50,946 nt of DNA from NCBI GenBank assembly GCA_015069385.1, contig SVIS01000003.1, positions 62,001 to 112,946 of the forward strand. Direction: 5' to 3'. Source of the stretch: Clostridiales bacterium (GTDB lineage: Bacteria; Bacillota; Clostridia; Christensenellales; UBA1242). The notes under the pieces were generated by a model. That model saw only the letters and a program-made list of their open reading frames with translations. It was not told the DNA's origin and searched no databases. Numbering within the stretch: position 1 is the stretch's first letter; the number at the start of each line of letters is the position of its first letter. Shown here in pieces: positions 31-47,209 of the stretch. Made by a program: the position numbers and the translations under genes.

Positions 31-858
31 ATGAACTTTTTTGAAAAAATAGTCACATTTTTACAAACAAGAATGCCGGTTCCAACTCCATATGGTTGGT
101 TTCACCTTTTAAGTTTTGCCGTTGTAATTGGCGTTAGTGTTCTTTTGGCAATTAAATTAAGACACTCTGACAACAAAACTATTAAAAGATTTTTGCTTAT
201 TGTAAGCATTACTTTAATTGTACTTGAAATATATAAACAAATTGTATTTTGCTACAATGCCCAGTCAGATACATGGACATATCAATGGTATATTTTCCCA
301 TTTCAATTTTGTTCATCTCCTATGTATGTATGCTTACTTGCTGCACTTGTTAAAAAAGGTAATTTTCAAGACTATTTATATTCTTTCTTAGGCACATTTG
401 CACTTTTAGCAGGCGCTTTAATAATGTTTGTGCCAACCGATGTTTTTATGAGTTTTATTGGCGTAAACATTCAAACAATGGTGCATCACGGCGCTATGAT
501 TGTTGTAGGTGTTGTTCTTCTTGTAAATGGAGCATGCAAAACCAACCTTAAAACCATGCTTAAAGCTTCAGCAGTTTTTGGCGTTTTAGTTTTTATTGCC
601 CTTGCAATCGATTGCTCTTATATTTGGCTTGGCGGAACGGCAACTTGTAATATGTTTTTCATTAGCCCATACTTTAATACTTCTCTTCCTGTGTTTAGTT
701 CAATTCAACCAAATGTACCATATTTTGTATTCTTGCTTTTATATATCTTTGCTTTCTGCCTTGCCGCCTTTTTGGTGCTTGGCACAGCAATGCTTATTAA
801 AAAACTTGCATCAAAAAGAAAGGCTGCATCAAACAATTTAGATACAGCCAATAATTAA
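31..858 (+). CDS. Multi-pass integral membrane protein (about 7 predicted TM helices), function unknown
   Basis: 275-aa ORF preceded by the RBS 'aaggagaaaaaa'. Hydrophobic segments recur throughout. No catalytic motif recognised. Confidence 0.45.
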   Translation: MNFFEKIVTFLQTRMPVPTPYGWFHLLSFAVVIGVSVLLAIKLRHSDNKTIKRFLLIVSITLIVLEIYKQIVFCYNAQSDTWTYQWYIFPFQFCSSPMYVCLLAALVKKGNFQDYLYSFLGTFALLAGALIMFVPTDVFMSFIGVNIQTMVHHGAMIVVGVVLLVNGACKTNLKTMLKASAVFGVLVFIALAIDCSYIWLGGTATCNMFFISPYFNTSLPVFSSIQPNVPYFVFLLLYIFAFCLAAFLVLGTAMLIKKLASKRKAASNNLDTANN

Positions 859-3099: not shown

Positions 3100-3345
3100 A
3101 TATTTTTTGAGTTTTACAATACTTCCATATTGTAAAAATAGTTAAAGACAAGTAGTGCTATTACAATTCGCACAGAGAAGGGTTGGTTGGTGAAAAACCT
3201 AAGATAGTTTTAGTATGAAACCACTTTATGCATCTATTTTTAGTAATATTTAAAGAGTGGAAAGTTTTAAACTTTCAAAAAAGGTGGAACCGCGGTTTTT
3301 AAAATCGTCCTTTGTTTTATGGCAAGGGCGGTTTTTTTGTTTACC
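3100..3345 (+). promoter_or_regulatory. T-box riboswitch leader upstream of thrS
   Basis: The conserved T-box core 'AAGGTGGAACCGCGG' lies at 3281-3295. It is followed by a GC-rich hairpin and U-run ('ggcaagggcggtttttttgtttaccctgccc') overlapping the annotated ORF start. The position upstream of an aminoacyl-tRNA synthetase gene fits. A Thr codon ACC occurs in a candidate specifier region near 3200. Confidence 0.6.
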
Positions 3346-3387
3346 CTGCCCTTTTCAATAATTAAGGAATTAAAAGGAGAATTTAAA

Positions 3388-5136
3388 ATGGAACAAAATG
3401 AAAAACAAGAAAAAATGCAAATGTGCCGTCATAGCCTTTCGCATGTGCTTGCAAAAGCAATCAAAAATTTATATGGTAATGAAAATGTAAAACTTGCAAT
3501 TGGTCCTGCAATTGACAATGGTTTTTATTACGATTTTGACATGCCAAGCATAACTGCCGACAAATATGACGAAATTGAAAAAGAAATGAAAAAAATTCTA
3601 AATGCCAACGAGCCATTTAGAAGAGAAGAATTATCTAGAGAACAAGCCTTAGAATTATTTAAAAATGAGCCTTATAAGGTAGAACTTATTAACGACTTGC
3701 CAGACGAAGAAACAATTTCTGTTTACTATTTAGGTGACAACTTTGTTGACCTTTGCCGTGGCCCTCATGTTGAAAACACTTCTAAATTGCAATCATATGC
3801 TTATAAAATAAACAGAGTTAGTGGCGCTTACTGGAAAGGTAGCGAAAAAAACAAAATGCTTCAAAGAGTATATGTTTATGCCTTCCCTGACAAAAAACAA
3901 TTAACTGAATATATTAACCAAATAGAAGAAGCAAAAAAACGTGACCACAGAAAGTTGGGCAAAGAATTAGATTTATTCTTCTTTGATGAAACTGCTCCGG
4001 GCATGGCTTACTGGCTACCAAAAGGCTTTACAATGATGAACACTTTAATCGACTTTTGGCGCAAAGAGCACAAAACAAGAGATTATCTTGAGTTCTCTGC
4101 TCCACAATTAAACAGCAGTGTATTATGGAAAACATCAGGTCACTGGGACCATTACAAAGAAGACATGTTTGTTTTGACTGACGTTGATGGCAACGAGCAA
4201 GCGCTAAAGCCTATGAACTGCCCTAACAGTATTAAAATTTATCAAAGCAAAATGCGCAGTTATAAAGACTTACCTCTTCGTTTAAACGATATTGATGTTA
4301 TTCACAGAAACGAAAAATCTGGTCAATTAAATGGTTTGTTTAGAGTTAGAATGTTCCGTCAAGATGACGCACACAACTTTATTCGCCGTGACCAAATTGG
4401 CTCAGAAATTAAAAGCATTATAGATTTAATCAACAAACTTTATGGCGTTTTTGATTTACCACATATTTTAACATTATCTACAAGACCAGAAGATTTTATG
4501 GGTGAAATAGAAACTTGGAACGAAGCCGAAAAAGAGTTAAAAGCAGTTTTAAACGACCTATGTGGCGAAAATAACTACAGAATTAACGAAGGCGATGGTG
4601 CTTTTTATGGTCCAAAAATTGACATTAAAATGAAAGACTGTTTAGGTCGTGAATGGCAAATGGGCACAATTCAGTTAGACTTCCAATTGCCAGAGCGCTT
4701 TGATTTAACTTATGTAGACAGCAACGGCGAAAAAGCCCGCCCTATTATGATTCACAGAGCAATATTTGGCTCATTTGAACGTTTTATTGGCATTATTACT
4801 GAACACTTTGCAGGTGCCTTCCCACTATGGCTTGCCCCTGTACAAGTAAGAGTTATGAACATTTCAGAAAACAGTGCTGACTATGCACAAGAAATTTTTG
4901 CAAAACTAAACGAAAAAGGTTTTAGAGCAGAAATTGATATAAGAAACGAAAAAATTGGTTACAAAATTCGTGAATGTGTAGGTCAAAAAATACCATACAT
5001 GATTATTGTTGGCGATGGCGAAAAAGAAAACGGAACTATATCTATTCGTGGAAGAGGAAATGAAAATCAATCCGGCTTATTATTAGATGACTTTATTGCA
5101 AGGCTACAAGAAGAAATTAAAACTTTTAAAAAATAG
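3388..5136 (+). CDS. thrS: Threonyl-tRNA synthetase (short form lacking the N-terminal TGS domain)
   Basis: Class II aaRS motifs and ThrS-specific segments are present ('FRVRMFRQDDAHNF', 'GPKIDIKMKDCLGREWQMGTIQLDF'), plus an anticodon-binding C-terminus. The true start is taken as the ATG at 3388 after the RBS 'aaaaggag'. The track ORF start at 3319 lies inside the T-box terminator. Confidence 0.9.
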   Translation: MEQNEKQEKMQMCRHSLSHVLAKAIKNLYGNENVKLAIGPAIDNGFYYDFDMPSITADKYDEIEKEMKKILNANEPFRREELSREQALELFKNEPYKVELINDLPDEETISVYYLGDNFVDLCRGPHVENTSKLQSYAYKINRVSGAYWKGSEKNKMLQRVYVYAFPDKKQLTEYINQIEEAKKRDHRKLGKELDLFFFDETAPGMAYWLPKGFTMMNTLIDFWRKEHKTRDYLEFSAPQLNSSVLWKTSGHWDHYKEDMFVLTDVDGNEQALKPMNCPNSIKIYQSKMRSYKDLPLRLNDIDVIHRNEKSGQLNGLFRVRMFRQDDAHNFIRRDQIGSEIKSIIDLINKLYGVFDLPHILTLSTRPEDFMGEIETWNEAEKELKAVLNDLCGENNYRINEGDGAFYGPKIDIKMKDCLGREWQMGTIQLDFQLPERFDLTYVDSNGEKARPIMIHRAIFGSFERFIGIITEHFAGAFPLWLAPVQVRVMNISENSADYAQEIFAKLNEKGFRAEIDIRNEKIGYKIRECVGQKIPYMIIVGDGEKENGTISIRGRGNENQSGLLLDDFIARLQEEIKTFKK

Positions 5137-7726: not shown

Positions 7727-8303
7727 ATTTTTCTAACCTTTTTTTATATACAAAAGCTTTTAACTGCAATAAACTTTGTAAACCAAATTTTTCAGCATCT
7801 AGCATTTTTTGTAGAGTATCAAAATCTACAATCTTTAATTTTATGTCTTCCGTGCTCTCTAATTTTTGTGGTTTAAAATTTCCAACTTCTGCCTCAAAGC
7901 AAGCAATGCTTTCATCTGTCATGCCTGCACTTGAATAACTTGGCTTAAACACCTCGGTAAGTTTTACCACATCTGCACCAATTTCTTCTTTTAACTCTCT
8001 TGCTGCTGCTTGCCTTAGCGTTTCGCCGTCATCTACTAGTCCTGCCGGAACTCCATAAATATAATCGTTTATAGCGTACCTAAACTCTTTAATAAGCACT
8101 ACATACATTTTTCCATTTAAATTAAAGTATGGTAAAATTCTAACGGCATCAACTACATTTTCGCCCTTACAAGAAAGCGTATTTAAATTTCTTCTTGATG
8201 CAACAAAGTATTTAAAAGGTTTACCATCTATGCTGTACTCTAACTCAAACATATTTAAATATTTGTTATTGGTTAATTGATTAACCTTTATTAATTTTTT
8301 CAT
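7710..8303 (-). CDS. NUDIX hydrolase, probable ADP-ribose pyrophosphatase
   Basis: Nudix box 'GVPAGLVDDGETLRQAAARELKEEIG'. Overlaps nadM by 17 bp, which suggests translational coupling. Confidence 0.7.
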   Translation of the reverse strand: MKKLIKVNQLTNNKYLNMFELEYSIDGKPFKYFVASRRNLNTLSCKGENVVDAVRILPYFNLNGKMYVVLIKEFRYAINDYIYGVPAGLVDDGETLRQAAARELKEEIGADVVKLTEVFKPSYSSAGMTDESIACFEAEVGNFKPQKLESTEDIKLKIVDFDTLQKMLDAEKFGLQSLLQLKAFVYKKRLEKYEKTK

Positions 8304-9196
8304 ACTCTCTCCGAATTTTTATTTTGTTTATTGTTTTTTACTTGTTTTTCTACTTTTTTAAATATTTTGTCAATTTGGCTATCGGCGTATACTTGTGCCA
8401 AAGTTGTAAACTTTTTACTTCCAACAATTGTATTAGCCAGTTCAATAATTTTTTTATCGTAACTATAAACATTATTTGTATACCAAACTCGCTCTTCTGG
8501 GTAGTTTAAAAGTTCAGTAAGTTCATTGCCATAATGCTGTGCTACAACTTTATCTCTTTTTTTTATTGCACTAAACAATGCTTTTTCTAATTGCTGGGTA
8601 TTTTCAGCATTTTTTTTAGTTTCACCAAATCTAACATTTTCTGTTTTTAAAATTTTTGCACCATTTGTATACATTTCGTATAGGGCTTTGTTATGCTCTA
8701 AATTTGCATTGTGTGTTTTACCATCAAAGGTTGCACAAGCATCGGCTACTACTCTAATTATTAGTTTTTTATTGTGCTTTTTTGCATACTCTAAATAACT
8801 ATTAACAAAGTTTTTAACGCATATATCTGTGCAACAACCTACAACGGTTACTTCCTCTATGTCATAGTTTTCAACTAATTTTCCAAAGGTATATGTTACA
8901 AAGCCGTTTGTTGTGTCTTTTTCTATATCAAAAGCAAAATCTTTTTGGTAAGGCTTAAGTTCATCAATTAATTCGCTTTCATAACTTCCTTTTAAACAGT
9001 GCTCAGGAAATACCTCAAATTCTGAGTCGTTTTTACTATGGCAGTCTCTAAAATTTATAATTGGAACGTTTTCCTTTTTTGCCTCTTTTATTAACTTTAT
9101 TATATTAGGTGTAATTTGATTTATTTTTGGATCTGCAAGCGCCCCTTGCTTAACAAACCCGTTTATCATATCTATTATTACTAAAATTTTTTTCAT
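8300..9196 (-). CDS. pncA: Nicotinamidase / isochorismatase-family hydrolase with C-terminal extension
   Basis: Isochorismatase fold with a catalytic Cys context 'VTVVGCCTDICV' and an N-terminal 'ILVIIDMINGF'. The start is taken at the ATG at 9196 with the RBS 'aaggag'. The track extension to 9271 would run into the operator region. Confidence 0.65.
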   Translation of the reverse strand: MKKILVIIDMINGFVKQGALADPKINQITPNIIKLIKEAKKENVPIINFRDCHSKNDSEFEVFPEHCLKGSYESELIDELKPYQKDFAFDIEKDTTNGFVTYTFGKLVENYDIEEVTVVGCCTDICVKNFVNSYLEYAKKHNKKLIIRVVADACATFDGKTHNANLEHNKALYEMYTNGAKILKTENVRFGETKKNAENTQQLEKALFSAIKKRDKVVAQHYGNELTELLNYPEERVWYTNNVYSYDKKIIELANTIVGSKKFTTLAQVYADSQIDKIFKKVEKQVKNNKQNKNSERV

Positions 9197-9226
9197 GTAT
9201 TTATCTCCTTTTTTATTATATGTTTT

Positions 9227-9357
9227 TGATATTGTCATTGTGATAATATCATTAAGAAAATATTTTGTCAAGTATTTTTTCGAAAATTATTGACTTATTT
9301 TTATCAAAATGATAATATCAAAACGAAATCCAATAAAATATGTTTAGATATTGTCAA
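9227..9357. promoter_or_regulatory. Bidirectional control region with a repeated palindromic motif (TGATATTGTCA / TGATAATATCA), candidate NrtR-type operators
   Basis: A near-palindrome 'TGATATTGTCAttgTGATAATATCA' lies at 9227-9251. 'TGATAATATCA' recurs at 9310-9320 and 'GATATTGTCA' at 9347-9356. They sit between the divergent pncA operon and the PRTase-nadE-ARH-NrtR-like operon. Confidence 0.4.
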
Positions 9358-9394
9358 AAATTAAACAATATATATAAAGGAGTTCTATACAAAA

Positions 9395-10206
9395 TGTATA
9401 TAAATAACAAACCATTCACAGCAAGACGTTTTTCTAGCGGAGAGTTAAAACTACTTCACCAAGACTTACAAGGTTATGTAAAAAACAATAAGGTAAATAT
9501 TGTATATAATAATGATGAATTAAGTTTATTTGAACTAATGATTATTATTAATTATTATACTAGTAAAAATATAATAGTAGATTTAACTTTATCTTATTTA
9601 CCTTACCAACGAATGAATCATGATAATGGTTATGAGGTCGAAACTTTAAAACATATTGCAAACATTTTTAATAATTTAAAGTTAAATAGCCTAAAGGTTG
9701 GCGAGCCACACTGCAAATTAAACTATTTTAATAATGCACAAAAAATTAACATTATTGAAAAGTTATTTAAAAAAGTATGCAAAGAAATTAACTTTAATTT
9801 AAATTCAGACATTTTATTTTTCACCGATAAAGGCAGTCGAGAAAAGTTTGGACATTTAAGCACTAACTCTGTATATTCAGAAAAAGTAAGAGATAAAAAA
9901 ACTGGACTTATTGCCCAGTACAACTTAGTTGGCGAACTTAAAAATGCAAATAAAATTTTAATAGTTGACGACATAATTTCTTCAGGTGACACCATATGCG
10001 AGGCAATAAAACAGATAAAGAAAAACTTTAAAACATCTGCTCTGCCAGAAATATTTATTTTAAGCGCACACTACGAAAACAACAAATATAATAAAAGATT
10101 ACTTGAAAATAAATATGTTAAAAAAATTTTTAGTTGTAATACCTTAAGAAAAACAGAGGCAACAAAATTAAAACTATATGATTTTTATAAATTAGTGGAG
10201 GAATAA
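9395..10206 (+). CDS. Phosphoribosyltransferase-domain protein (type I PRTase C-terminal domain; N-terminal domain unknown)
   Basis: PRPP-binding motif 'ILIVDDIISSGDTICEAI'. The start is taken at the ATG at 9395 after the RBS 'aaggag'. The track start at 9340 overlaps the operator motif. Confidence 0.5.
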
Positions 10207-10210
10207 AAAC

Positions 10211-10975
10211 ATGACAAAACAAAACGTACAACAAATAATTGATTGGATTAAAGAATATTTTAATAAAAATAGTTTTGCTAAAGGTGTTGTGCTTGGCATG
10301 AGTGGCGGTAAAGATAGTTTGGTTGTTGCTAAACTTTGCACTCTTGCACTTGGCAAAGAAAAAGTTTTTGGCGTAATTATGCCAAACGGCAAAATGAAAG
10401 ATATTAACGATGCCATTGTAACCTGCCAACTTCTTGGCATAGATTATGACATTGTTGATATTGAATCCTCATATAACGATATTATTACAAAAACAAAAGA
10501 AATTTTAGAAAAACGTGGTAAAACTTTAACCGATGTTTCTACAATAAACACAGCGCCAAGGCTACGCATGACAACTTTGTATGCAGTGGCTGGAAGCATG
10601 GGCTATTTAGTTGCAAACACATCTAACTTAAGCGAGCGCATGGTTGGCTATAGCACAAAATGGGGTGACAGCGTTGGCGACTTTGCTCCAATTGCCAACT
10701 TTACTAAAAACGAAGTATGCGAAATAGGCTTGCTTTTAGGCTTGCCGGTAAATCTTGTAACCAAAACGCCAAGCGATGGGCTTTCTGGCAAAAGTGATGA
10801 GGACAAATTAGGCATAACCTATGACTCACTAGATAACATAATTAGAACGGGCACAAAAAATAATGATTACGAAAAAATTTTGCGCATGTATAAAAACTCT
10901 ACCCATAAGCGTGGTAGCATTCCTGCCCCAAGCAGCAATATGAATAATTTTTTGGAGGAATTGACTCGTGAATAA
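10211..10975 (+). CDS. nadE: NH3-dependent NAD+ synthetase
   Basis: PP-loop 'GMSGGKDSLVV'. Length 254 aa. Confidence 0.85.
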   Translation: MTKQNVQQIIDWIKEYFNKNSFAKGVVLGMSGGKDSLVVAKLCTLALGKEKVFGVIMPNGKMKDINDAIVTCQLLGIDYDIVDIESSYNDIITKTKEILEKRGKTLTDVSTINTAPRLRMTTLYAVAGSMGYLVANTSNLSERMVGYSTKWGDSVGDFAPIANFTKNEVCEIGLLLGLPVNLVTKTPSDGLSGKSDEDKLGITYDSLDNIIRTGTKNNDYEKILRMYKNSTHKRGSIPAPSSNMNNFLEELTRE

Positions 10976-11822
10976 ATATAGCATTTATGGAGCAATTATT
11001 GGCGATGTTGCCGGCTCACACCTAGAAGTTTTAGAAATGAAAGAAAAAGAAAATGGCTACAAAGTAAGTAGCCAAAAAAGAGAAAAGGTTTTAGACCCAA
11101 ACACTATCCTTTTTACTGATGATTGCTCATTAACAGATGATAGCATATTAACAGTTGCACTTGCCGATGCCCTGTTAAATAACAAAGATTATTGTAAATA
11201 TTTAAAAGAATATGGAAAACAAGAAATTGACCTTGGTAAAGACAAATACGGCAGAAGTCGTTTTGGAAAATGTTTTTGCGAGTGGCTTAACGGTGATTTT
11301 ATAGGAAATAGTTTTGGTAATGGTTGCGCAATGAGAATATCCCCCATTGCTTATGCTTTCTCTAGCCTAGAGGAAACATTAAAAGAATGTAATAAAGCAA
11401 CAATATGCACGCATAATCATGAGGATTCTTTAAAATGTGCTAGAGCAGTTTGTGGAGCCATTTATTTGGCACGAACAAACAAAAGTAAAGAAGAAATTAA
11501 AAATTTTGTAGAAAAAGAACTAGACATTAAGTTAAATTTTGATTTAAAATATTTAAGAGATAATTACATATTTACATCAAAAGCAATTAATTCTGTTCCT
11601 CAAGCAATTTATTGCTTTTTGGTATCTAACTCGTTCGAAGAAACACTTAGAAATACCCTATCAATTGGTGGCGATGTAGACACAACAGCGGCAATATCAT
11701 GTTCAATTGCATCGGCTTTTTATAATATTCCTCAAAACTTTATAAATAAAGTAAAAGAATATATTAAACCTGAATATTTAAAAATTTTAGAACAATTTTC
11801 TATAACATATTTGGAGGCATAA
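10968..11822 (+). CDS. ADP-ribosylglycohydrolase family protein (ARH/DraG-like)
   Basis: Motifs 'IGDVAGSHLE', 'TDDCSLTDDSI' and 'GGDVDTTAAISCSIASAFY' are typical of ADP-ribosylglycohydrolases. Confidence 0.75.
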   Translation: MNKYSIYGAIIGDVAGSHLEVLEMKEKENGYKVSSQKREKVLDPNTILFTDDCSLTDDSILTVALADALLNNKDYCKYLKEYGKQEIDLGKDKYGRSRFGKCFCEWLNGDFIGNSFGNGCAMRISPIAYAFSSLEETLKECNKATICTHNHEDSLKCARAVCGAIYLARTNKSKEEIKNFVEKELDIKLNFDLKYLRDNYIFTSKAINSVPQAIYCFLVSNSFEETLRNTLSIGGDVDTTAAISCSIASAFYNIPQNFINKVKEYIKPEYLKILEQFSITYLEA

Positions 11823-12677
11823 ATGAAGTTAAGTAGCGAAGATAAAACTTTTTTAGCACTATATTCCGACAGCGAATACGAAAAACCAAGCGTAACCGTT
11901 GATGGTGTTATTTTTAGATTAGTAAATAAAGAAAATGACAATTACCGAAAACTTCCAGAAAAAAAACTGCAAGTGTTTTTATCTAAACGCTCCTACCCTC
12001 CTTATAAAGATTGTTATGGTGTTGTTGGTACTTTTATTGACCTTAAAACCGAACTTACTACTACCATGGAATTATGCATTAAAAACAAAGTTGGATTAGA
12101 AAATTTTTATAGCGAACAACTTTTTACATTTGGTGAAAAATCTCGTGACCCAAGAACACGTGTACTTTCAGTAAGTTATATGATTTTAACTAGTCAAGAA
12201 GAAAAAATTGAAAATGGTGAATGGTTTGATATAAATATTTCAAAAATAACCAATAAAACATCAACATCTATAACTCAAGAAATTAATATATTGCTTTGCA
12301 ACGAAAATAATCAATTTGAAAACAAATTAGAATTAAAAATTGACAAAAAAGGCTTAAAAACAACAAAAACTCTCAATATTCTACAAAATACATTGGCATT
12401 TGACCATATTAACCTTATATATCACGCACTAGAAAGGCTAAAAAACAAATTAGAATATACAGATATAATTTTTAATTTACTGCCTAAAACTTTTACTCTA
12501 ACAGAGTTAAAACAAAGTTATGAAGAAATTTTAAACGAAAAATTGCTCGATGCCAACTTTAGACGTAAAATTGCTAAAATGGTTGTTGCAACCAACGATT
12601 ATGAAGTGGGCAAAGGTCATCGCTCTAGTAAATATTTTGCGCCAAACCCAACATATAGTTTTATTGATATTGATTAA
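11823..12677 (+). CDS. NrtR-like regulator (Nudix-related N-domain plus C-terminal winged-helix domain), candidate repressor of the NAD cluster
   Basis: N-terminal Nudix-like beta-strand 'VTVDGVIFRL' without an intact catalytic Nudix box. The C-terminal 'FTLTELKQSYEEILNEKLLDANFRRKI' resembles the NrtR DNA-binding domain. The genomic context is NAD/ADP-ribose genes. Confidence 0.45.
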   Translation: MKLSSEDKTFLALYSDSEYEKPSVTVDGVIFRLVNKENDNYRKLPEKKLQVFLSKRSYPPYKDCYGVVGTFIDLKTELTTTMELCIKNKVGLENFYSEQLFTFGEKSRDPRTRVLSVSYMILTSQEEKIENGEWFDINISKITNKTSTSITQEINILLCNENNQFENKLELKIDKKGLKTTKTLNILQNTLAFDHINLIYHALERLKNKLEYTDIIFNLLPKTFTLTELKQSYEEILNEKLLDANFRRKIAKMVVATNDYEVGKGHRSSKYFAPNPTYSFIDID

Positions 12678-23172: not shown

Positions 23173-23605
23173 AACTACTCCTTTTAAATCAAGAATAGTT
23201 TTGCCAAATATTTAAAAATCATACGCTAAAAATCTTACAAACACAAAAATTATAATTAATTAAAGCCCCGGAAACTACTCTTAGAAGCAATAGAAAATCA
23301 TTAAAATAACTTTTCTATCACTCATTTTATCAATTATTATTTAAATTATGTCAAATATAACAAAATCTCAATCAAATTGACTATCTTTTCTGACTTTTAA
23401 TCAACTCAACCAAATATCGCAGTTACGATTTGATGCACTTTAGAACATTTTGGCAGTTTGAGCGCACTTACCAAGTTAAAAATGCTAAACAGTAGTTTTT
23501 GATGTATTTCTAAAATTTTTATAAAATGGTTGTAAGAAAAACAAAAAAAGTGATATAGATATTAATATCTATTAGTACAATATATGTAAATTTTTAGGAG
23601 GAAGA

Positions 23606-24523
23606 ATGAAAAAGAAAATTATTAGTTTAAATTTACTTTTATGTTTAAGTTTTCTTTGTATTTGCTTAACAGGTTGTTTCTCTCCAAGAGTTGAGAAATT
23701 AGAGGTTCAATATACATCTAATATTCAATTCTTTGTAGGTGAAGATTGGCACGATGATTTAATTAAGGGAACTGCAATTTATTCAGATGATACTGAAAAA
23801 GATGTAACAGAAGATTTGAATATTGATACTTCTGATTATGACAAAACACAAGTTGGAGAATACGATATTGTATTTGAATATGAAGATATTGAAGTAAAAT
23901 ATCAAGTAAAAGTTGTTGAAGAAATGACTAACTTAACTTCAATTCAAAAACGAATTGAGCCTTGCTTCCAAAATGCTTTTAAAGCACAAAATGGTGTTTT
24001 AGAATTTTCTGCTACAATTTCTGAATATGTTGAAGAAGATTTATATTTAAAACAAACAATTCAATATAAACTTGAGAATAATACTCTAAAAGAATATTAT
24101 AAACTTGAATATACAAATGAAAGCGAATCAGATTGTATGTCTCTATTTGAAATTCTTTATGTAGGAGATTTAACTAACGGAACTTTAACAAACAAATACT
24201 ATACTACTGATGATGATATTACATATTATTATGATGTGAATTCAAAACAAGGAACATGGGTAGAGTTTGAAGAAGCAATCCCTCAAATTGCAACATTATA
24301 TGGAGCTTCAACTTATGTAGATGCTAAACAATGGTTAAATTTTTATACTGACTACTATCCAAATATTTATCCATTAAAATTAACAAAATCGGCAAATACA
24401 TATACAATAAAACTATCAAATAATCAAACTATCAAAATTGACAACGAAGGATATATGTCTGAATATTGTGGAATAGAATTCTCAAAAACTACTAATATCC
24501 CAAGCGAATTAACAGCAGAATAA
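23606..24523 (+). CDS. Lipoprotein, function unknown
   Basis: Signal peptide with the lipobox 'LTGC'. RBS 'aggagg'. A terminator hairpin lies at about 24531-24560. Confidence 0.5.
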   Translation: MKKKIISLNLLLCLSFLCICLTGCFSPRVEKLEVQYTSNIQFFVGEDWHDDLIKGTAIYSDDTEKDVTEDLNIDTSDYDKTQVGEYDIVFEYEDIEVKYQVKVVEEMTNLTSIQKRIEPCFQNAFKAQNGVLEFSATISEYVEEDLYLKQTIQYKLENNTLKEYYKLEYTNESESDCMSLFEILYVGDLTNGTLTNKYYTTDDDITYYYDVNSKQGTWVEFEEAIPQIATLYGASTYVDAKQWLNFYTDYYPNIYPLKLTKSANTYTIKLSNNQTIKIDNEGYMSEYCGIEFSKTTNIPSELTAE

Positions 24524-24765
24524 AAATTATAGGAACTATCCCGTGTTGGATAGTTCTTTTATTATATGGAGAAAATATATGAGATTATAGCAATTAATAT
24601 AGTTTTAATTATGTTAATCAAGAGATTATAATAGGTCTTATTATGCTCCATTGATGTCGTTTGGCACTATAAATCAAAAACCAAGTCAATTAAAACCCCC
24701 GGATAGTTTCCGGGGTTTTCTAATATGAAATAGAGAAGTCATTTTTAATTATAACTGAAAATTAT

Positions 24766-25015
24766 GTTCCCACAGGGAATCGAACCCCGAACTAGCCCTT
24801 AGGAGGGGCACTACTTTTTGAAAAAAAGTTTGTTTAGCCACAGGCGCAACAAGCCCCATTAAACAAACTTTGTAAAACACTAATATTGGTGTTCCCACAG
24901 GGAATCGAACCCCGAACTAGCCCTTAGGAGGGGCTCTACTTTTTGAAAAAAAGTTTGTTTAGCCGCAGGCGCAACAAGCCCCATTAAACAAACTTTGTAA
25001 AACGCTAATATTGGT
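24766..25015 (-). repeat. Two tandem 125-bp units, each made of a tRNA-Arg 3' fragment (anticodon stem to CCA, about 48 nt) plus about 77 bp of the tRNA-downstream terminator region
   Basis: The units start at 24766 and 24891 and are near-identical, with 3 to 4 substitutions. Each carries the T-arm GGTTCGATTCC and an ACCA tail but lacks the 5' half of the tRNA. The intact tRNA follows at 25012-25086. Confidence 0.8.
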
Positions 25016-25086
25016 GTTCCCACAGGGAATCGAACCCCGAACTAGCCCTTAGGAGGGGCTTGTTATATCCGTTTAACTATGAGAAC
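25012..25086 (-). tRNA. tRNA-Arg (anticodon CCT)
   Basis: Cloverleaf folded by hand with a 7-bp acceptor stem, D-arm, anticodon stem AGCCC/GGGCT, loop CTCCTAA, T-arm GGGGTTCGATTCCCTG and an encoded CCA. Confidence 0.75.
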
Positions 25087-25168
25087 ATGATTATTTGCTT
25101 TTGCAAGTTTAGCACAAATAATGTATAAAAGCAAATATTAATTTTAAATAAGCCCGTGTATAATTATG

Positions 25169-31972: not shown

Positions 31973-33301
31973 CTACGCAATTACTAGTTTAAATGCTGGA
32001 CGAACGCCACAGTCAATATCGTCGTATACACTGCTAAGGTCTATATCACCATCACTGTATACACACCTCACGCAAGAGTCGTTGTTTGATGGGGAACATG
32101 CGAGAGGCGAACGTAACCACCAACAATCGACAGACCCCTCTAATAGTTTTGCTCCACCTTGTGCCGTAGTAAATAGCCCAGTATATTCTAATGTGCTTAA
32201 TAGCCATAATGATTGATTTATAGTTGATTGTGAATATGGTGTTGCTATTATTCGTCCATTTGTGTCATCTTTGTCATATTCTTCACCACCAAGCGTTCTT
32301 GTAGTTATTTGGCTATATACTCCTGAATATTTCTCTGCACCAAAGTTATATTTTGTATATAATCCTGTTGTTCCGTTTACATAGTTTTGTATGGTTGAAT
32401 TGTTATAGTGAATACCATAGTCATTTGCTTCTGTACAATTTTCACTTTCATTAAACGCTATATAGTCACTATCTGTATTTTTTAATATGTATTCTGATAT
32501 AAAGTAGTATGTTCCTGCTGGAACGTTTGTAGAAGTTGTATCAGTAAAAGTATCTACTGCTACCATGCCATCTTCGCCTACTGCATCGCTGCCTGTTGCA
32601 CTATAGGCAAAAGCATACCAGCGAAGGGCTGTGCCGTTTTCATCTTCACCCATCTCTACATAGAGTTTTGTTTTTGCTTTTTCTGTTTCATCTACTAGGC
32701 CTGTCATTGCTCCAGTTTTTAATACCTTTCTATCAAATGTGTATTTTTTAAACTCCATATTGGCGGAGAAATTTGCTTCAAAGTCTCCTATTGTTTCTAT
32801 ATCTAACAATGTAAAGGTTATTGTTAAGTCTTCCTTTTGTGCATCTTTTGCTAGTGTAAATGATTGGGCTGACGTTACTCCGCTTATTGAGGTTATTTCC
32901 TCTGTGCTTGTTGTATCATATGCCACTGGGTTTGGTATGTTACATACTATTGTATAGTCTGACATGTTTGTTATTGTCATTTCTATTACTACTGTGTTTC
33001 CATCGTTTGCTAAGTCTGTAAATGCTAGGTCTGTTCCAAATGATTGGCTCTTTGTTATTTCCTCTGCTGTGCTTCCGCCAACTATTACACTACCCGTTGT
33101 TTCTGTTTTGGTTGTTGTGTTTGTTTTAGTATACGAGGTTACTGTATAGTCCACTTGTACTTTACAATTATGCGCTGTAAAGCCTATTGTTCCGGTGGCG
33201 GTAAGTGAGGCTTGTTTGGCTGCATATATGCCTATTGCCATGGCACATATGCATAAACATATTGCTACTATGTTTATTAGCCATTTATAGTTCTTCTTCA
33301 T
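31973..33301 (-). CDS. Variable surface protein, paralog A (signal peptide, variable Thr/Ser-rich middle, conserved C-terminal domain ending CGVRPAFKLVIA)
   Basis: The first 44 aa and the C-terminal block are identical to the ORF at 42718-44010. RBS 'aagaggag'. Confidence 0.6.
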   Translation of the reverse strand: MKKNYKWLINIVAICLCICAMAIGIYAAKQASLTATGTIGFTAHNCKVQVDYTVTSYTKTNTTTKTETTGSVIVGGSTAEEITKSQSFGTDLAFTDLANDGNTVVIEMTITNMSDYTIVCNIPNPVAYDTTSTEEITSISGVTSAQSFTLAKDAQKEDLTITFTLLDIETIGDFEANFSANMEFKKYTFDRKVLKTGAMTGLVDETEKAKTKLYVEMGEDENGTALRWYAFAYSATGSDAVGEDGMVAVDTFTDTTSTNVPAGTYYFISEYILKNTDSDYIAFNESENCTEANDYGIHYNNSTIQNYVNGTTGLYTKYNFGAEKYSGVYSQITTRTLGGEEYDKDDTNGRIIATPYSQSTINQSLWLLSTLEYTGLFTTAQGGAKLLEGSVDCWWLRSPLACSPSNNDSCVRCVYSDGDIDLSSVYDDIDCGVRPAFKLVIA

Positions 33302-42717: not shown

Positions 42718-44010
42718 TTATGCTATTACTAGTTTAAAAGCTGGACGAACACCACAATATAAATAAGAGTTTTTTGGTCCACTGAAATTAAGATTACCAG
42801 ACTCCGTCACAACCGATATTCGAGATTCAATACCAGCAGTTTGAGTTGTGCGTAACCACCAACTTTTATTAGAACCACCAAGCGAGCTTGCCTTACCTTG
42901 CACCGATGAGAATAGACCGCGATATTCTGATGTGCTTAATAGCCATAAAGATTGATCTATAGTTGATTGTGTTGTTGGGTTTGCTATGGTTTCATAATTT
43001 GAACCAAACTCTATATATTGCTCACCACCAAGCGTTCTTGTAGTTATTTGCCCATACACTCCTGAATATTTGTCTGCACTAAAGTTATATTTTGTATATA
43101 ACCCTGTTGTACCATTTACATAATTTTGTACGGTTGAATTGTTGTAATTTACGCTACCTGTTGAATCAAAATCAATACTGTCACTATCAATATTTTTTAG
43201 TACATATTCTGATATAAAGTAGTATGTACCTGCTGGAACTGATGTAGAATCTGTTGCTGTAAACTCATCTACTGCTACCATGCCATTTGCACCTACTTCT
43301 TCGCTGCCTGTTGCACTATAGGCAAAAGCATACCAGCGAAGGGCTGTGCCGTTTTCATCTTCACCCATCTCTACATAGAGTTTTGTTTTTGCGTTTTCTG
43401 TTGTATCTGGTAAGCCACTCATTGCTCCAGTTTTTAATGCACTTCTATCAAATGTATATTTTTTAAACTCTAGGTTTGCATCAAATATTGCTGATATTTC
43501 TGAGGCGGTTTCTATGTCTGTTAAAGTGAATTTTATTGTTATATCTTTATACTCACCTTTTGTTGATAATACAAATGATTGGTGTGAGGTTACTCCTTGT
43601 ATTGTTGTTATTTGGGTTGTTGTACTATTTGAATCATACGCTACTGGGTTTGGTATGTTACATAGTACTGGAAAGTCTGAGTCGCTTGTTATTTTTAAGT
43701 TTATTGTTATTGTATTTCCTTCTTCTACCAAATCACTAAAGTACATTGCTGGAAGAGGTAGTTCTTCTCCTTCTTCATCTACTAGTGTTTCTGCTATTGT
43801 TGCTTCTGTTCCTGTTAGTTTTGTGGTGAAATCTTCATCATATGCATCTATTGTTCCTGACACCTTTACCTTACAGCCATGCGCTGTAAAGCCTATTGTT
43901 CCGGTGGCAGTAAGTGAGGCTTGTTTTGCTGCATATATGCCTATTGCCATGGCACATATGCATAAACATATTGCTACTATGTTTATTAGCCATTTATAGT
44001 TCTTTTTCAT
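42718..44010 (-). CDS. Variable surface protein, paralog B
   Basis: 430 aa. Its N-terminal 44 aa and the C-terminal 'CGVRPAFKLVIA' are identical to paralog A, and the middle has diverged. Confidence 0.6.
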   Translation of the reverse strand: MKKNYKWLINIVAICLCICAMAIGIYAAKQASLTATGTIGFTAHGCKVKVSGTIDAYDEDFTTKLTGTEATIAETLVDEEGEELPLPAMYFSDLVEEGNTITINLKITSDSDFPVLCNIPNPVAYDSNSTTTQITTIQGVTSHQSFVLSTKGEYKDITIKFTLTDIETASEISAIFDANLEFKKYTFDRSALKTGAMSGLPDTTENAKTKLYVEMGEDENGTALRWYAFAYSATGSEEVGANGMVAVDEFTATDSTSVPAGTYYFISEYVLKNIDSDSIDFDSTGSVNYNNSTVQNYVNGTTGLYTKYNFSADKYSGVYGQITTRTLGGEQYIEFGSNYETIANPTTQSTIDQSLWLLSTSEYRGLFSSVQGKASSLGGSNKSWWLRTTQTAGIESRISVVTESGNLNFSGPKNSYLYCGVRPAFKLVIA

Positions 44011-44167: not shown

Positions 44168-44947
44168 ATGGCACATTCTTATAAAGGAGCAATTTCATTT
44201 GGCTTGGTATATATTCCAATTACCTTAAGTGTAAGTGTAAAACAAAATGATATTGGTTTTAATATGCTCGATAAAAACACTATGAGTAGAGTAAAATATA
44301 AAAAAACTTGCGTGGATTGTAAAAACAAAGAGGTTAAAAATGAAGACATTGTAAAGGGTTATCAATATCAAAAGGGCAAATATGTAATTTTTACTGATAA
44401 AGATTTTGAAAAAATAAAATCACCAAAAGATAAAAACATTGTAATTGAGCAATTTGTTAACTTAGAAGAAATTGACCCAATATATTTTGACAAAGCATAT
44501 TATGTTAAACCATCTGGTGCTGATAAAGCATTTAATGTTTTACTTGCAGCCATGGAAAAAGAAAAGAAAGCCGGCATTGCCAAAACAGTTCTCGGTACTA
44601 AAGAAACACTGTTTTTAATTAGAGCAAAAGATGGCAAAATGTATGCAAGCACAATGTATTTTAAAGATGAAATTCAAAAATGCGAAGAAGTTAAAAAAAG
44701 CAAGATTGATAAAAAAGAATTAGATCTTGCAATAAATTTGATTAACCAAATGACTTCAAAATTCGCTCCTGAAAAATTTAAAGATGAATATACCGAAAAA
44801 ATAAAAAAAGCAATTAAGCGAAAAATTTCTGGAAACGATATTGTGGCAACATCAGAAAAGACTGAACAAAACAATGTTATTAACTTAATGGACGCTCTTC
44901 AAAAAAGTTTGTCTGGCACAAAACTTAAAGCAGGAGCAAGCAAATGA
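44168..44947 (+). CDS. ku: Ku protein (NHEJ DNA-end-binding)
   Basis: N-terminus 'YKGAISFGLVYIPITL' is the bacterial Ku signature. 259 aa. Confidence 0.85.
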   Translation: MAHSYKGAISFGLVYIPITLSVSVKQNDIGFNMLDKNTMSRVKYKKTCVDCKNKEVKNEDIVKGYQYQKGKYVIFTDKDFEKIKSPKDKNIVIEQFVNLEEIDPIYFDKAYYVKPSGADKAFNVLLAAMEKEKKAGIAKTVLGTKETLFLIRAKDGKMYASTMYFKDEIQKCEEVKKSKIDKKELDLAINLINQMTSKFAPEKFKDEYTEKIKKAIKRKISGNDIVATSEKTEQNNVINLMDALQKSLSGTKLKAGASK

Positions 44948-46374
44948 GTTTAGAAAAATACAACGAAAAAAGAGATTTTTCTCAAACTAAAGAACCAAAA
45001 GGCATTACAAAAAAAACACAATCTAAAAGTCTTAAATTTGTAATTCAGTTTCATAGAGCAACCACAGACCACTACGACCTACGTCTAGAATATAATGGGG
45101 TACTTCTTAGTTGGGCTGTGCCAAAAGGGCTTTCCACTAATCCAAATGTTAAACGGCTTGCTGTTATGGTTGAAGAACACCCAATAAAATATGCCGATTT
45201 TGAGGGTGTAATTCCTAAAGGTAATTATGGTGCTGGTGTTGTTGAAATTTTTGATAGTGGAACTTACGAGCAAACTGAAGACTTTAAGTTAGGTTTAAAA
45301 AACGGCAATTTGAAATTTTTCCTTAATGGAAACAAATTAAAGGGTTTGTGGACATTAGTAAAAACCGACAAAAACAACTGGCTTGTTATAAAAATTAATG
45401 ATAAATTTACAAAAAAAGAAGAAAAAACCTCAAAAAAACCTAAAAATCCATTCAAAAATGTTCCTGTAATGTTGGCAACACTATCTAATAATATACCAAC
45501 AGGAAAAGATTGGTTATTTGAAATAAAGTATGATGGCTATAGAATCACAGCATACAAAAGCGACAAAAGTGTGCAACTTTTTTCTCGTAATGGAAATGAT
45601 TATTCTAAAAAATTTTCATCTATTGTTGAAAGCGTAAGCCAAATTGCAAAAGATATTCCCTTTGTTTTAGATGGTGAAGTTGTTAGTTTTAATAAAGATG
45701 GTGTTTCTGATTTTTCTCTCTTGCAACAAAATATTAAAAGCAGTAATGATAATTTTAGTTATGTAGTATTTGACCTGCTTGCTCTAAACGGAAAAGACCT
45801 TCGCAATACTCCCCTAATAGAAAGAAAAGAATATTTGAAAAATATACTCGAAGGCACAGATAATAAAATAATTTATAGCACTCATGTTATTGGCAATGGT
45901 AAAAAATGTTTTAACTTAGCAAAAAAATTAAATTTAGAAGGAATTGTTGCTAAAAAAATCAACTCAACATATGTTGGTAATCGCAATGAAGATTGGCTAA
46001 AAATTAAATGTTATAAGCGCCAAGAATTTATAATTATTGGTTTTACTACAACTGAAAAAAACAAAATATTAAGTGCAATTTTGGTGGGTTTTTATAAAGA
46101 CAACGCACTAATTTTTGCCGGTAAAGTAGGCACCGGTTTTTCAGAAAATATGAAAAAAGAACTTGTTTCTAAGTTTAAAAAAATTGAAACAAATACTTGC
46201 CCACTTGCAGAAAAAATTGATATAAAAGCCAACTGGTTAAAGCCTAAACTGATTGCTGAAATAAAGTATGCTGAATTTACCAAAGACGGACTCCTTCGTC
46301 AGCCAAGTTTTGTTGGCTTAAGAGAAGATAAAAAACCTAGTAATGTTGTTTTGGAGGAAAAAGGTGGAAGTTAA
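44944..46374 (+). CDS. ligD: ATP-dependent DNA ligase LigD (phosphoesterase domain plus ligase domain)
   Basis: PE-domain 'FVIQFHRATTDHYDLRLE' followed by the ligase motif I 'KYDGYR'. Overlaps ku by 4 bp. Confidence 0.85.
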   Translation: MSLEKYNEKRDFSQTKEPKGITKKTQSKSLKFVIQFHRATTDHYDLRLEYNGVLLSWAVPKGLSTNPNVKRLAVMVEEHPIKYADFEGVIPKGNYGAGVVEIFDSGTYEQTEDFKLGLKNGNLKFFLNGNKLKGLWTLVKTDKNNWLVIKINDKFTKKEEKTSKKPKNPFKNVPVMLATLSNNIPTGKDWLFEIKYDGYRITAYKSDKSVQLFSRNGNDYSKKFSSIVESVSQIAKDIPFVLDGEVVSFNKDGVSDFSLLQQNIKSSNDNFSYVVFDLLALNGKDLRNTPLIERKEYLKNILEGTDNKIIYSTHVIGNGKKCFNLAKKLNLEGIVAKKINSTYVGNRNEDWLKIKCYKRQEFIIIGFTTTEKNKILSAILVGFYKDNALIFAGKVGTGFSENMKKELVSKFKKIETNTCPLAEKIDIKANWLKPKLIAEIKYAEFTKDGLLRQPSFVGLREDKKPSNVVLEEKGGS

Positions 46375-47209
46375 AATTGATGGAATTACAATAACTAATC
46401 CTGACAAAATAATATATCCTAAAGAAAAAATAACAAAACTTGATGTAGTTAAATATTACAAAACAGTTGCAAAATATATGCTTCCATATTTAAAAAATAG
46501 AGTACTTTGTGCCATTAGGTGTCATGGCGGAATTAATGAAGAATGTTTTTTTAAAAAACACCCCACTACCGAAACGGAAAATGTAAATACTATAAAAATA
46601 AATGGCGAAGAATATTTTTATATAAAAACCGAAAAAGACATAATTTATCAGGCACAAATGGGCACGCTAGAATTTCATACTTGGGGAAGCAAAATAAAAT
46701 CAATTAATAACCCTGACTTTATGATTTTTGACTTAGACCCAGCAACAAATGTTAATTTACAAAAATTAAGGCAAGGTGTTTTGCTCGTTAAAGAAATTCT
46801 AGACAATTTAAATTTAAAATCGTATTTAAAAACAAGCGGTGGAAAAGGTTATCATATTGTTGTGCCTTTTGCAAAATGCAAAAATTGGCAAAGTTTTAAA
46901 CATTTTTCACATAATATTGCTCTTTTATGTGAAAAATTACACCCTACTCTTTTTACAACTTCTATTCGTAAAAAAGACCGAACTGGCAAAATTTTTGTTG
47001 ATTACTTAAGAAACGAAAAAGGCTCAACCTGTGTTTGTGCATATTCGCTTAGGGCGCGAATTGGTGCCCCTGTATCGTTGCCAATTTCATGGCAAAATTT
47101 AAATAAGATTACACCAAACGAAATTAATATGCAAACTGCACTTAAACTAATTAACACTCAAAATCCTTGGAAAAATATTTATGAAACGAATCAAAGTTTA
47201 AATAAATAA
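46364..47209 (+). CDS. LigD polymerase/primase domain protein (separate Pol subunit)
   Basis: LigD-Pol-like sequence. The likely GTG start at 46364 follows 'ggagg'; the track ATG at 46343 overlaps the ligD 3' end. A bidirectional terminator lies at about 47215-47250. Confidence 0.7.
   Translation: MEVKIDGITITNPDKIIYPKEKITKLDVVKYYKTVAKYMLPYLKNRVLCAIRCHGGINEECFFKKHPTTETENVNTIKINGEEYFYIKTEKDIIYQAQMGTLEFHTWGSKIKSINNPDFMIFDLDPATNVNLQKLRQGVLLVKEILDNLNLKSYLKTSGGKGYHIVVPFAKCKNWQSFKHFSHNIALLCEKLHPTLFTTSIRKKDRTGKIFVDYLRNEKGSTCVCAYSLRARIGAPVSLPISWQNLNKITPNEINMQTALKLINTQNPWKNIYETNQSLNK

What the first reader, a model, noticed from the sequence alone, without database searches (positions are those of the whole stretch)
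24766..25086. Tandem array of tRNA-Arg(CCT) 3' fragments downstream of the intact gene
Downstream of the intact tRNA-Arg(CCT) (25012-25086, minus strand) there are two further 125-bp units. Each reproduces the tRNA from the anticodon stem to the CCA end (T-arm intact) plus the same about 77-bp terminator-bearing spacer, but lacks the tRNA 5' half. The units are nearly identical. The repeat boundary at the anticodon stem is the classical crossover region of tRNA-targeting tyrosine integrases, so these may be attB/attR scars of repeated integration and excision. No integrase is present in the window. They could alternatively be pseudo-tRNA minihelix transcripts.
Basis: seen in the sequence. Interest (0 to 1): 0.6.

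Follow-up and report, generated by a model that had tools for sequence, protein, structure and literature searches.

The report
Leftover integration scars behind a tRNA-Arg gene
Behind an intact arginine tRNA gene of an uncultured gut Clostridia bacterium sit two copies of the tRNA's back half separated by a 76-bp spacer, most likely the worn-down footprint of a mobile element that once inserted into the tRNA; this is an ordinary kind of genomic scar, unusual only for how little is left.

Summary
The repeat is real, but its layout differs from the finding. On the minus strand it reads: intact tRNA-Arg(CCT), CCA, 76-bp spacer, 3' fragment with CCA, 76-bp spacer, 3' fragment of 46 nt without CCA or spacer. 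That is 2.4 copies of a 125-bp period.

All three copies are identical from tRNA nt 28 to the discriminator (nt 73). The block therefore starts at the anticodon stem, as in anticodon-centred attachment sites of tyrosine integrases.

Neither fragment scores as a tRNA. No integrase lies in the window, and no donor element was found in any collection.

Ten relatives (61-77% SigH identity) have no tRNA downstream of sigH. In five of them sigH abuts the rubrerythrin gene, so about 1.9 kb (tRNA, array and a lipoprotein gene) is lineage-specific.

Near-identical conspecific contigs carry either one or two spacers, so copy number varies within the species.

Best reading (about 0.6): scars of site-specific integration whose interior was deleted, then expanded or contracted by unequal exchange between the 46-bp cores. 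Integrase involvement is inferred, not shown.

This is a known kind of feature and of low interest.

The parts
25012..25086 (-). Intact tRNA-Arg(CCT), 75 nt with encoded CCA. Its nt 27-76 form the first 49 nt of repeat unit 1.
   Evidence: ARAGORN; Rfam RF00005 59.9 bits.
25106..25134 (-). Promoter-like site for the tRNA: TTGCTT, 17 nt, TGcTAAACT (extended -10). Read by eye.
   Evidence: Read from the sequence. The consensus scan did not list it. Inference only.
24936..25011 (-). Spacer S1, 76 bp, the C,C variant. It holds a 12-bp perfect inverted repeat (24950..24996) followed by T7, so it is terminator-like.
24887..24935 (-). Fragment 1: tRNA nt 27-73 plus CCA (49 nt). No 5' half.
   Evidence: Rfam scores it 23.0 bits, below the gathering score of 29.
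24811..24886 (-). Spacer S2, 76 bp, the T,T variant (two CpG to TpG differences from S1). Hairpin at 24825..24871.
24765..24810 (-). Fragment 2: 46 nt. The first base is T instead of A27, then nt 28-73. It ends at the discriminator base, with no CCA, and is followed by unrelated sequence (TAATTTTCAG).
   Evidence: Rfam scores it 23.2 bits, below the gathering score of 29.
24697..24715 (.). G+C-rich bidirectional terminator-like hairpin, 50 nt beyond fragment 2. It lies between the array and the convergent lipoprotein gene.
23496..24582 (+). Lipoprotein gene cassette (gene 23606..24523, 305 aa, LTGC lipobox, weak Big_3 match). The same cassette, at 82-88% DNA identity, sits next to a 293-aa tyrosine recombinase gene in other genomes. 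Its link to the array is circumstantial.
23216..25168 (.). Segment of about 1.9 kb between sigH and the rubrerythrin leader that has no counterpart in relatives. The left edge is approximate.

Best explanation
The array is the decayed footprint of site-specific integration into tRNA-Arg(CCT) by an element with an anticodon-loop-type tyrosine integrase.

**Proposed steps**
1. The element's attP carried a copy of the tRNA from the anticodon stem to the 3' end. That copy had an encoded CCA and its own terminator hairpin.
2. Integration rebuilt a working tRNA from the host 5' half and the element's 3' part. It displaced the older 3' part downstream; this is the last fragment, which has no CCA and a different flank.
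3. The element interior, including the integrase, was then deleted. Only 76 bp remained between the two 46-bp cores: the hairpin-bearing P' arm plus about 10 nt of the P arm.
4. Unequal exchange between the cores, either homologous or by an integrase acting in trans, produced the two-spacer allele in the window. Exchange between the tRNA's core and fragment 1 gives exactly the one-spacer allele seen in other contigs.

**Shown:** the anatomy, the boundaries of the identity block, absence from relatives, the copy-number polymorphism, and the lack of an integrase.

**Inferred:** integrase involvement, the internal deletion, and the exchange mechanism.

The fragments are probably silent DNA.
For: 1. 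**Position of the identity block.** It runs from nt 27/28, the first bases of the anticodon stem, to the discriminator, in direct orientation downstream of the intact gene. This matches the anticodon-centred tDNA signature, recorded for 2083 of 3919 Islander islands (PMC4383910).
2. **The spacer is extra DNA.** It is flanked by 46-bp direct repeats. The proximal copies encode CCA and the distal copy does not, so the tRNA 3' ends have two different origins. A simple tandem duplication would not produce that.
3. **The locus is not ancestral.**
   - Seven genome relatives and three more contigs have no tRNA after sigH.
   - In five of them sigH abuts the rubrerythrin gene, with 85-237 bp between them.
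4. **Copy number varies within the species.** Two independent contigs (ERZ27248436, ERZ27248446) have tRNA, spacer (T,T variant), fragment (T). The window, L018 and L002 have two spacers.
5. **Mobile-DNA company.**
   - The neighbouring lipoprotein cassette lies beside a tyrosine recombinase gene in three other lineages.
   - In L026 it lies among MobL, Bro-N and serine recombinase genes.
   - One homologue of that recombinase sits 257 bp downstream of a tRNA-Ser gene.
6. **Other genomes show the same hot spot.** tRNA-Arg(CCT) genes with the same 5' half and T arm show a 3' fragment starting at nt 31 (L043), a 5' fragment, and a Thoeris defence island (L044).
7. **Precedent.** Partial tRNAs left by degenerated elements are described for tycheposons (bioRxiv 10.1101/2020.12.28.424599). 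[quoted passage not shown]
Against: - No integrase or integrase remnant lies in the window.
- No element carrying the core with the spacer arms was found. The six DNA-pattern scans of viral contigs, two metagenome scans, and the phage and plasmid collections were all empty.
- No empty or occupied allele was seen.
- A remnant of only 76 bp, with about 10 nt left of one arm, requires a very tidy deletion.
- The middle fragment starts with A27, whereas simple unequal exchange predicts T. An extra substitution or a short conversion tract is needed.
- The lipoprotein cassette shares no sequence with the spacer or the fragment flank in other genomes, so its link to the array is only by position.
- The recombinase family next to it also occurs in seemingly chromosomal settings.
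Confidence: 0.6

Rival explanations
1. Truncated tandem gene copy, with no mobile element involved. The lineage once had two tandem tRNA-Arg(CCT) genes. A deletion removed the promoter-proximal spacer and nt 1-26/27 of the second gene. Unequal exchange then changed the copy number.
For: - No integrase or donor element was found.
- The native tRNA-Glu in the window has an encoded CCA followed closely by a terminator, like the CCA-plus-spacer arrangement here.
- Copy-number change needs only homologous recombination.
Against: - The deletion end would fall at the anticodon-stem boundary by coincidence.
- T27 opposite T43 in the last fragment is not a tRNA-compatible pair.
- CCA is encoded in one copy but not the other.
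- A hairpin with a T-run between co-oriented tandem tRNA genes is atypical (from my own knowledge).
- AGG makes up only 14% of Arg codons, so two gene copies are not expected.
- The whole locus is absent from relatives.
Confidence: 0.15
2. The whole 1.9-kb segment, including the tRNA gene itself, is the remnant of a mobile element that carried its own tRNA-Arg(CCT) and landed between sigH and the rubrerythrin gene. The fragments record later integration into that imported tRNA. This is a variant of the best explanation that differs on where the tRNA came from.
For: - Ten relatives have no tRNA at this locus.
- The lipoprotein cassette keeps mobile-DNA company elsewhere.
- In L044 an intact tRNA-Arg(CCT) with the same 5' half and T arm sits just downstream of a displaced 5' fragment of another tRNA-Arg(CCT). 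It looks as if it was brought in with a defence island.
Against: - No flanking repeats or recombinase mark the ends of the 1.9-kb segment.
- GC content is not anomalous: 0.30-0.31 against a window range of 0.24-0.35.
- The nearest relatives are distant (at most 77% SigH identity), so a lineage-specific relocation of a native tRNA is equally possible.
Confidence: 0.2
3. Functional RNA array. The 3' halves would be transcribed and act as minihelix or tRNA-mimic RNAs, for example as substrates or decoys for CCA-adding enzymes, nucleases or integrases.
For: - Each fragment can still form the anticodon and T hairpins.
- The cores are perfectly conserved across all three copies.
Against: - No promoter-like site lies inside the array on the tRNA strand.
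- A hairpin with a T7 run precedes each fragment.
- The fold energy of the fragment equals that of shuffles, z = 0.00.
- The fragments score below the tRNA threshold.
- No gene lies downstream that they could regulate; a terminator and a convergent gene follow.
- Copy number varies between near-identical strains.
- Perfect identity is expected anyway for recent repeats.
Confidence: 0.04
4. Assembly artefact: the repeat was duplicated or collapsed by the assembler.
For: - The source is a short-read metagenome assembly.
- Several contigs break at the repeat edges: L003 at 25059, L021 at 24795, L024 at 24773.
Against: - The two-spacer layout was recovered in three assemblies: the window, L018 and L002.
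- The units differ at three positions, and these are consistently phased across assemblies.
- The one-spacer allele was recovered twice, independently, at k=141, which is longer than the distance from the unique tRNA 5' half to the first variant site.
Confidence: 0.02

Closest known systems
tDNA integration signature of genomic islands and prophages (Islander; Williams 2002 sublocation classes, anticodon-centred site)
   Same: - An intact tRNA gene with a cognate 3' end fragment downstream in direct orientation.
- The identity block starts at the anticodon stem and runs to the tRNA 3' end.
- The regenerated gene carries a foreign 3' flank: an encoded CCA and its own terminator-like hairpin.
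   Different: - Only 76 bp lie between the tRNA and the fragment, whereas Islander requires at least 2 kb and an integrase gene.
- No integrase lies anywhere in the 51 kb.
- The scar is itself tandemly repeated.
Tandem arrays and degenerate remnants at tRNA hot spots (tycheposon islands of Prochlorococcus; Islander tandem islands)
   Same: - Several partial tRNA copies follow one full-length tRNA.
- They are interpreted as the result of successive events, with older material pushed distally.
- Remnants without integrases are reported, and strains are heterogeneous.
   Different: - In those arrays each partial tRNA delimits kilobases of cargo.
- Here the two units are 98% identical 125-bp copies. 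They reflect duplication of one scar rather than separate integrations.
CIME (cis-mobilisable elements: att-flanked remnants of integrative conjugative elements lacking recombination genes, Streptococcus thermophilus). Recalled from my own knowledge, not checked in the paper library.
   Same: - A segment bounded by attL-like and attR-like cores with no integrase of its own.
- In principle an integrase supplied in trans could act on it.
   Different: - CIMEs are kilobases long, and their mobilisation has been shown experimentally.
- Here the segment is 76 bp, and nothing shows that it is a substrate for any integrase.
tRNA gene fragments mis-annotated as tRNA genes (PMC9897764)
   Same: Partial, non-functional tRNA-like sequences produced by integration of foreign elements into tRNA genes.
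   Different: These fragments fall below the detection thresholds (23 bits against 29), so they are not mis-called.

Membership tests
tDNA-integrated genomic island (Islander criteria) | An intact tDNA plus a cognate tDNA fragment on the same strand, with the 3' fragment downstream of the gene | tested here: met
   three identical 45-nt cores, all on the minus strand, with both fragments downstream of the gene.
tDNA-integrated genomic island (Islander criteria) | The fragment is an end fragment reaching the discriminator or 3' end, and starts at a recognised crossover sublocation (anticodon-centred or T-stem) | tested here: met
   The block spans nt 27/28 to 73 (or 76). The cmscan alignment places A27 as the first base of the anticodon stem. 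The classes are as given in PMC4383910.
tDNA-integrated genomic island (Islander criteria) | A tyrosine integrase gene between the tDNA and the fragment | tested here: not met
   Only 76 bp separate them. tblastn with four tyrosine recombinases against the window gives E >= 0.014. Pfam and NCBIfam scans of 30 window ORFs found no PF00589 match.
tDNA-integrated genomic island (Islander criteria) | Island length of 2-200 kb | tested here: not met
   The spacers are 76 bp.
tDNA-integrated genomic island (Islander criteria) | An empty site (attB) in related genomes, or a circular or attP form of the element | tested here: inconclusive
   Relatives lack the tRNA at this locus altogether. No attP-like sequence turned up in viral or metagenome scans. 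The metagenome collection did not return even the known JGI contig of this species.
CIME-like att-flanked remnant | Bounded by att cores and lacking its own recombination module | tested here: met
CIME-like att-flanked remnant | Derived from, and mobilisable by, a related integrase-bearing element | not testable with these tools
   No related element was found. Recombination assays or the full genome would be needed.
Functional tRNA gene (for the two fragments) | Scores at or above the Rfam RF00005 gathering threshold, or is called by ARAGORN with a complete cloverleaf | tested here: not met
   23.0 and 23.2 bits against 29. ARAGORN calls only the intact gene. No match to the 5' half elsewhere, with up to 5 substitutions allowed.
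Intrinsic terminator (for the spacer hairpin) | A stable stem-loop immediately followed by a T-run | tested here: inconclusive
   A 12-bp perfect inverted repeat plus T7. Fold energy -16 to -17 kcal/mol but z only -0.7 to -1.5. The consensus scan, which needs a loop of 3-8 nt and at least 3 G-C pairs, did not list it.
Tandem duplicated tRNA genes | Similarity between the copies extends over the whole gene, including the 5' half | tested here: not met
   Upstream of each fragment lies spacer sequence, with no similarity to tRNA nt 1-26.

The most novel reading that the evidence does not exclude
The 125-bp unit (att core plus a 76-bp arm remnant) is a miniature non-autonomous att-flanked module. 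A tyrosine integrase encoded elsewhere in the genome, or by a visiting element, expands and contracts its copy number by attL x attR exchange between sister chromosomes. The result is a variable array of spare landing sites behind a horizontally acquired tRNA-Arg(CCT).
Probability: 0.08. Interest if true: 0.4.

Novelty: new member of a known kind. Interest (0 to 1): 0.2.

Why it matters
- It marks a recombination hot spot, and probably a past mobile-element visit, in an uncultured gut or rumen Clostridia lineage.
- It shows how far an integration scar can shrink (76 bp) and still be recognisable.
- It shows that such scars can behave like a small variable-number tandem repeat between near-identical strains.
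- For annotation, the two fragments should not be called tRNA genes, and the locus should be flagged as a degenerate att site.
- It opens no new biological question.

Tried and rejected
**Searches for a donor element: all empty or uninformative**
- Six exact-pattern scans of viral contigs: core 39-mer, T-arm/acceptor 22-mer, spacer 23-mer, spacer-right plus core, CCA plus spacer-left, and anticodon-arm 21-mer.
  - The first five gave nothing.
  - The anticodon-arm 21-mer hit 120 or more contigs. The 80 loci inspected base by base were full tRNA-Arg(CCT) genes of another clade, apart from one cut off at a locus end.
- Two protein-seeded viral scans, with the recombinase and the lipoprotein, gave one distant hit and none.
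- The metagenome scan with the 45-mer gave nothing, although a JGI contig of this species carries it. The collection therefore does not cover this species.
- The metagenome scan with the 22-mer gave only three contigs from another organism.
- Phage and plasmid collections returned only generic tRNA matches, and no protein match for the lipoprotein.

**Other tests**
- **Integrase remnant next to the lipoprotein gene:** none found by tblastn.
- **Lipoprotein as cargo at a prophage end:** weakened. The SSB and deacetylase genes near it in L027 and L034 also occur together in chromosomal context in L166. The 293-aa recombinase also sits in seemingly chromosomal settings, always upstream of a variable surface-protein gene.
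- **tRNA-Ser fragment closing an island in L166:** none within 11 kb.
- **Spacer plus fragment as a decayed full tRNA:** rejected. The cmscan alignment is weak (23 bits), and the 3' halves are identical while the supposed 5' halves share nothing.
- **Small ORFs across the units (47-49 aa, GTG start inside the tRNA):** judged trivial.
- **Link between AGG codon use and the island gene:** none. The lipoprotein gene has no AGG codon.
- **L022:** first counted as a one-spacer allele, then withdrawn. The contig stops at the edge of its second core, so it is uninformative.

Full report
**Observation**

The minus strand between 25086 and 24765 holds an intact tRNA-Arg(CCT) (ARAGORN; Rfam 59.9 bits). 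It is followed by a tandem repeat with a 125-bp period, 2.4 copies, 98% matches and TRF score 571.

Read base by base, the layout is:
- **Intact tRNA:** nt 1-76 with an encoded CCA, at 25086..25012.
- **Spacer S1:** 76 bp, at 25011..24936.
- **Fragment 1:** nt 27-73 plus CCA, at 24935..24887.
- **Spacer S2:** 76 bp, at 24886..24811.
- **Fragment 2:** 46 nt, at 24810..24765.

Fragment 2 begins with T instead of A27 and ends at the discriminator base. It lacks both CCA and a spacer, and runs into unrelated sequence (TAATTTTCAG). About 50 nt further on lies a G+C-rich bidirectional terminator-like hairpin at 24697..24715.

S1 and S2 differ at two positions, both CpG to TpG. The 45-nt core occurs three times and nowhere else in the 51 kb, even with 10 substitutions allowed.

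Each spacer contains a perfect 12-bp inverted repeat followed by T7. It is terminator-like, but its fold energy is not exceptional (z -0.7 to -1.5), and the consensus scan did not list it.

The fragments are not tRNAs. They score 23.0 and 23.2 bits against a gathering score of 29, and reach that only by borrowing spacer bases as a false 5' half.

**Context**

The window is chromosomal DNA of a low-GC (about 30%) spore-forming Clostridia bacterium.
- Genes near the array include mnmG, rsmG, rlmB, sigH, rubrerythrin, dapA and aspartate kinase.
- Further away are spore germination genes and Ku/LigD.
- The exact lipoprotein sequence is held by NCBI as a MAG protein of a 'Clostridiales bacterium'.
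- No integrase is present. tblastn with four tyrosine recombinases gave nothing, and Pfam or NCBIfam scans of 30 ORFs found no PF00589 match.

**Relatives**

A genome scan with SigH found seven relatives at 67-73% identity, all gut or rumen Clostridia MAGs. None has a tRNA downstream of sigH.

In five of them sigH is followed directly by the rubrerythrin gene, with 85-237 bp between. Only the last 40 bp or so before the rubrerythrin start codon is conserved with the window.

Three further contigs carrying SigH homologues of 74-77% identity also lack the tRNA.

So about 1.9 kb, roughly 23216..25168, is lineage-specific. It holds the tRNA, the array and a convergent 305-aa lipoprotein gene. By contrast, the tRNA-Glu(CTC) 8 kb away is syntenic in relatives.

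**Variation within the species**

Contigs that are 99.9-100% identical to the window carry different copy numbers.
- **Two spacers:** L018 (JGI) and L002 (ENA) have the two-spacer layout with the same phased variants.
- **One spacer:** Two independent ENA contigs (L001, which is the same record as L019, and L020) have tRNA, spacer (T,T variant), fragment starting with T.

The one-spacer allele is exactly what recombination between the tRNA's core and fragment 1 would leave. The structure is therefore real, recent and unstable. It is neither an ancient fixed duplication nor a collapse artefact.

**What it is**

Whichever register is chosen, the spacer is extra DNA flanked by 46-bp direct repeats. 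Those repeats coincide with tRNA nt 28-73. The proximal tRNA 3' ends carry CCA and a hairpin, while the distal one carries neither.

Two different origins for the tRNA 3' end are what site-specific integration into a tRNA gene produces. So are an identity block that starts at the anticodon stem and the direct orientation downstream of the gene. The element supplies a new 3' part and displaces the old one (PMC4383910, where anticodon-centred sites account for 2083 of 3919 islands).

Partial tRNAs left by degenerated elements are documented, as are tandem junctions within cultures. Such remnants are considered pervasive in prokaryotic genomes.

The missing interior must have been deleted. The near-identity of the two units points to duplication of one scar by unequal exchange, not to two separate integrations.

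**Circumstantial support**

- **Lipoprotein cassette.** Window 23496..24582 recurs at 82-88% DNA identity in other genomes.
  - There it lies immediately downstream of a 293-aa tyrosine recombinase gene.
  - The recombinase is intact in L027-L029 and L034, and split in L026.
  - In L026 it lies among MobL, Bro-N and serine recombinase genes.
- **Recombinase next to a tRNA.** One homologue of that recombinase lies 257 bp downstream of a tRNA-Ser gene.
- **Same tRNA type in another organism.** tRNA-Arg(CCT) genes with the same 5' half, T arm and acceptor stem show three features:
  - a 3' fragment starting at nt 31;
  - a displaced 5' fragment;
  - a Thoeris and methylase island directly downstream.

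**Limits**

- No donor element, empty site or occupied site was found. All eight viral scans, both metagenome scans, and the phage and plasmid searches came back without one.
- The metagenome collection evidently does not cover this species.
- The lipoprotein cassette shares nothing with the spacer or the fragment flank in other genomes.
- Its companion recombinase also occurs in chromosomal-looking settings next to variable surface-protein genes. That link is therefore weak.
- The A at the start of the middle fragment needs one extra substitution or a short conversion tract.

**Rivals**

- **Truncated second tandem gene, no mobile element (0.15).** It cannot be excluded from sequence alone. 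Several points count against it:
  - the boundary at the anticodon stem would be a coincidence;
  - T27 faces T43 in the last fragment;
  - the copies differ in CCA;
  - AGG codons are scarce (14% of Arg codons);
  - relatives lack the locus.
- **The tRNA itself was imported with the 1.9-kb segment (0.2).** This is a variant of the main reading, not a contradiction of it.
- **Functional RNA (0.04).** It lacks a promoter, a downstream target and any structural signal.
- **Assembly artefact (0.02).** Phased variants agree across independent assemblies.

**Verdict**

This is a degenerate attachment-site scar at a tRNA gene, tandemly duplicated and variable in copy number. It is a new example of a well-known kind of feature. 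It is notable only for its extreme reduction (76 bp between cores) and its repeat behaviour. Interest is low.

Noticed in passing
window 23474..23496: Three contigs from separate assemblies (L001/L019, L022, L024) all begin exactly at window 23474, and L025 begins at 23490. Homology with the L026 lipoprotein cassette starts at 23496. This looks like an assembly-graph branch point, so the cassette may sit in a second context in the same communities.
   Followed up: partly
L027-L029, L034, L026, L166-L173: A 293-aa tyrosine recombinase family is always followed, after about 220-240 bp, by a variable putative surface-protein gene: a 305-aa lipoprotein, a 652-aa protein, or a 660-aa LRR_5 protein. 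In L166 and L167 it lies 257 bp downstream of tRNA-Ser(GGA), with no tRNA-Ser fragment in the next 11 kb. It could be a small integrase-plus-cargo island or a phase-variation recombinase.
   Followed up: partly
window 23555..23572: An 18-bp perfect palindrome, ATAGATATTAATATCTAT, lies between the promoter-like site (23499..23527) and the ribosome-binding site of the lipoprotein gene. The surrounding region matches the homologous cassettes in both orientations.
   Followed up: no
L044 about 483..524 and 673..747: A promoter-preceded 5' fragment (nt 1-43) of one tRNA-Arg(CCT) lies about 150 bp upstream of an intact tRNA-Arg(CCT) with a different acceptor stem. Downstream come Thoeris genes (ThsA with SIR2 and STALD domains, and two ThsB), a DUF2971 gene and a C5 DNA methylase gene. 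It looks like an island that brought its own complete tRNA.
   Followed up: partly
L042 versus L044 versus L043: L042 has an extra segment of about 138 bp directly after the CCA of its tRNA-Arg(CCT), which L044 lacks. The same segment, 87% identical, follows the 3' fragment in L043. L042 has no second core, so this may be another arm remnant.
   Followed up: partly
window 24979 and 24940 versus 24854 and 24815: Both differences between the two spacers are CpG in S1 against TpG in S2. This would fit deamination of methylated cytosine, but with only two sites it may be chance.
   Followed up: no
window 3135..3315 (+): A T-box leader (Rfam 94.1 bits, just above the gathering score of 93) lies upstream of a 605-aa ORF at 3319..5136.
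   Followed up: no
window 44168..47209 (+): A Ku gene, a 476-aa ORF and a LigD primase-polymerase domain gene lie together. This is a non-homologous end-joining cluster.
   Followed up: no
window 31973..33301 and 42718..44010 (-): Two paralogous proteins of 430-442 aa with C-terminal DUF6273 domains lie 10 kb apart.
   Followed up: no
window 8300..12677: An NAD salvage and ADP-ribose cluster: isochorismatase-like protein, phosphoribosyltransferase, NAD synthase, ADP-ribosylglycohydrolase and an NrtR-type regulator. A Fic/DOC protein gene lies at 891..1949.
   Followed up: no
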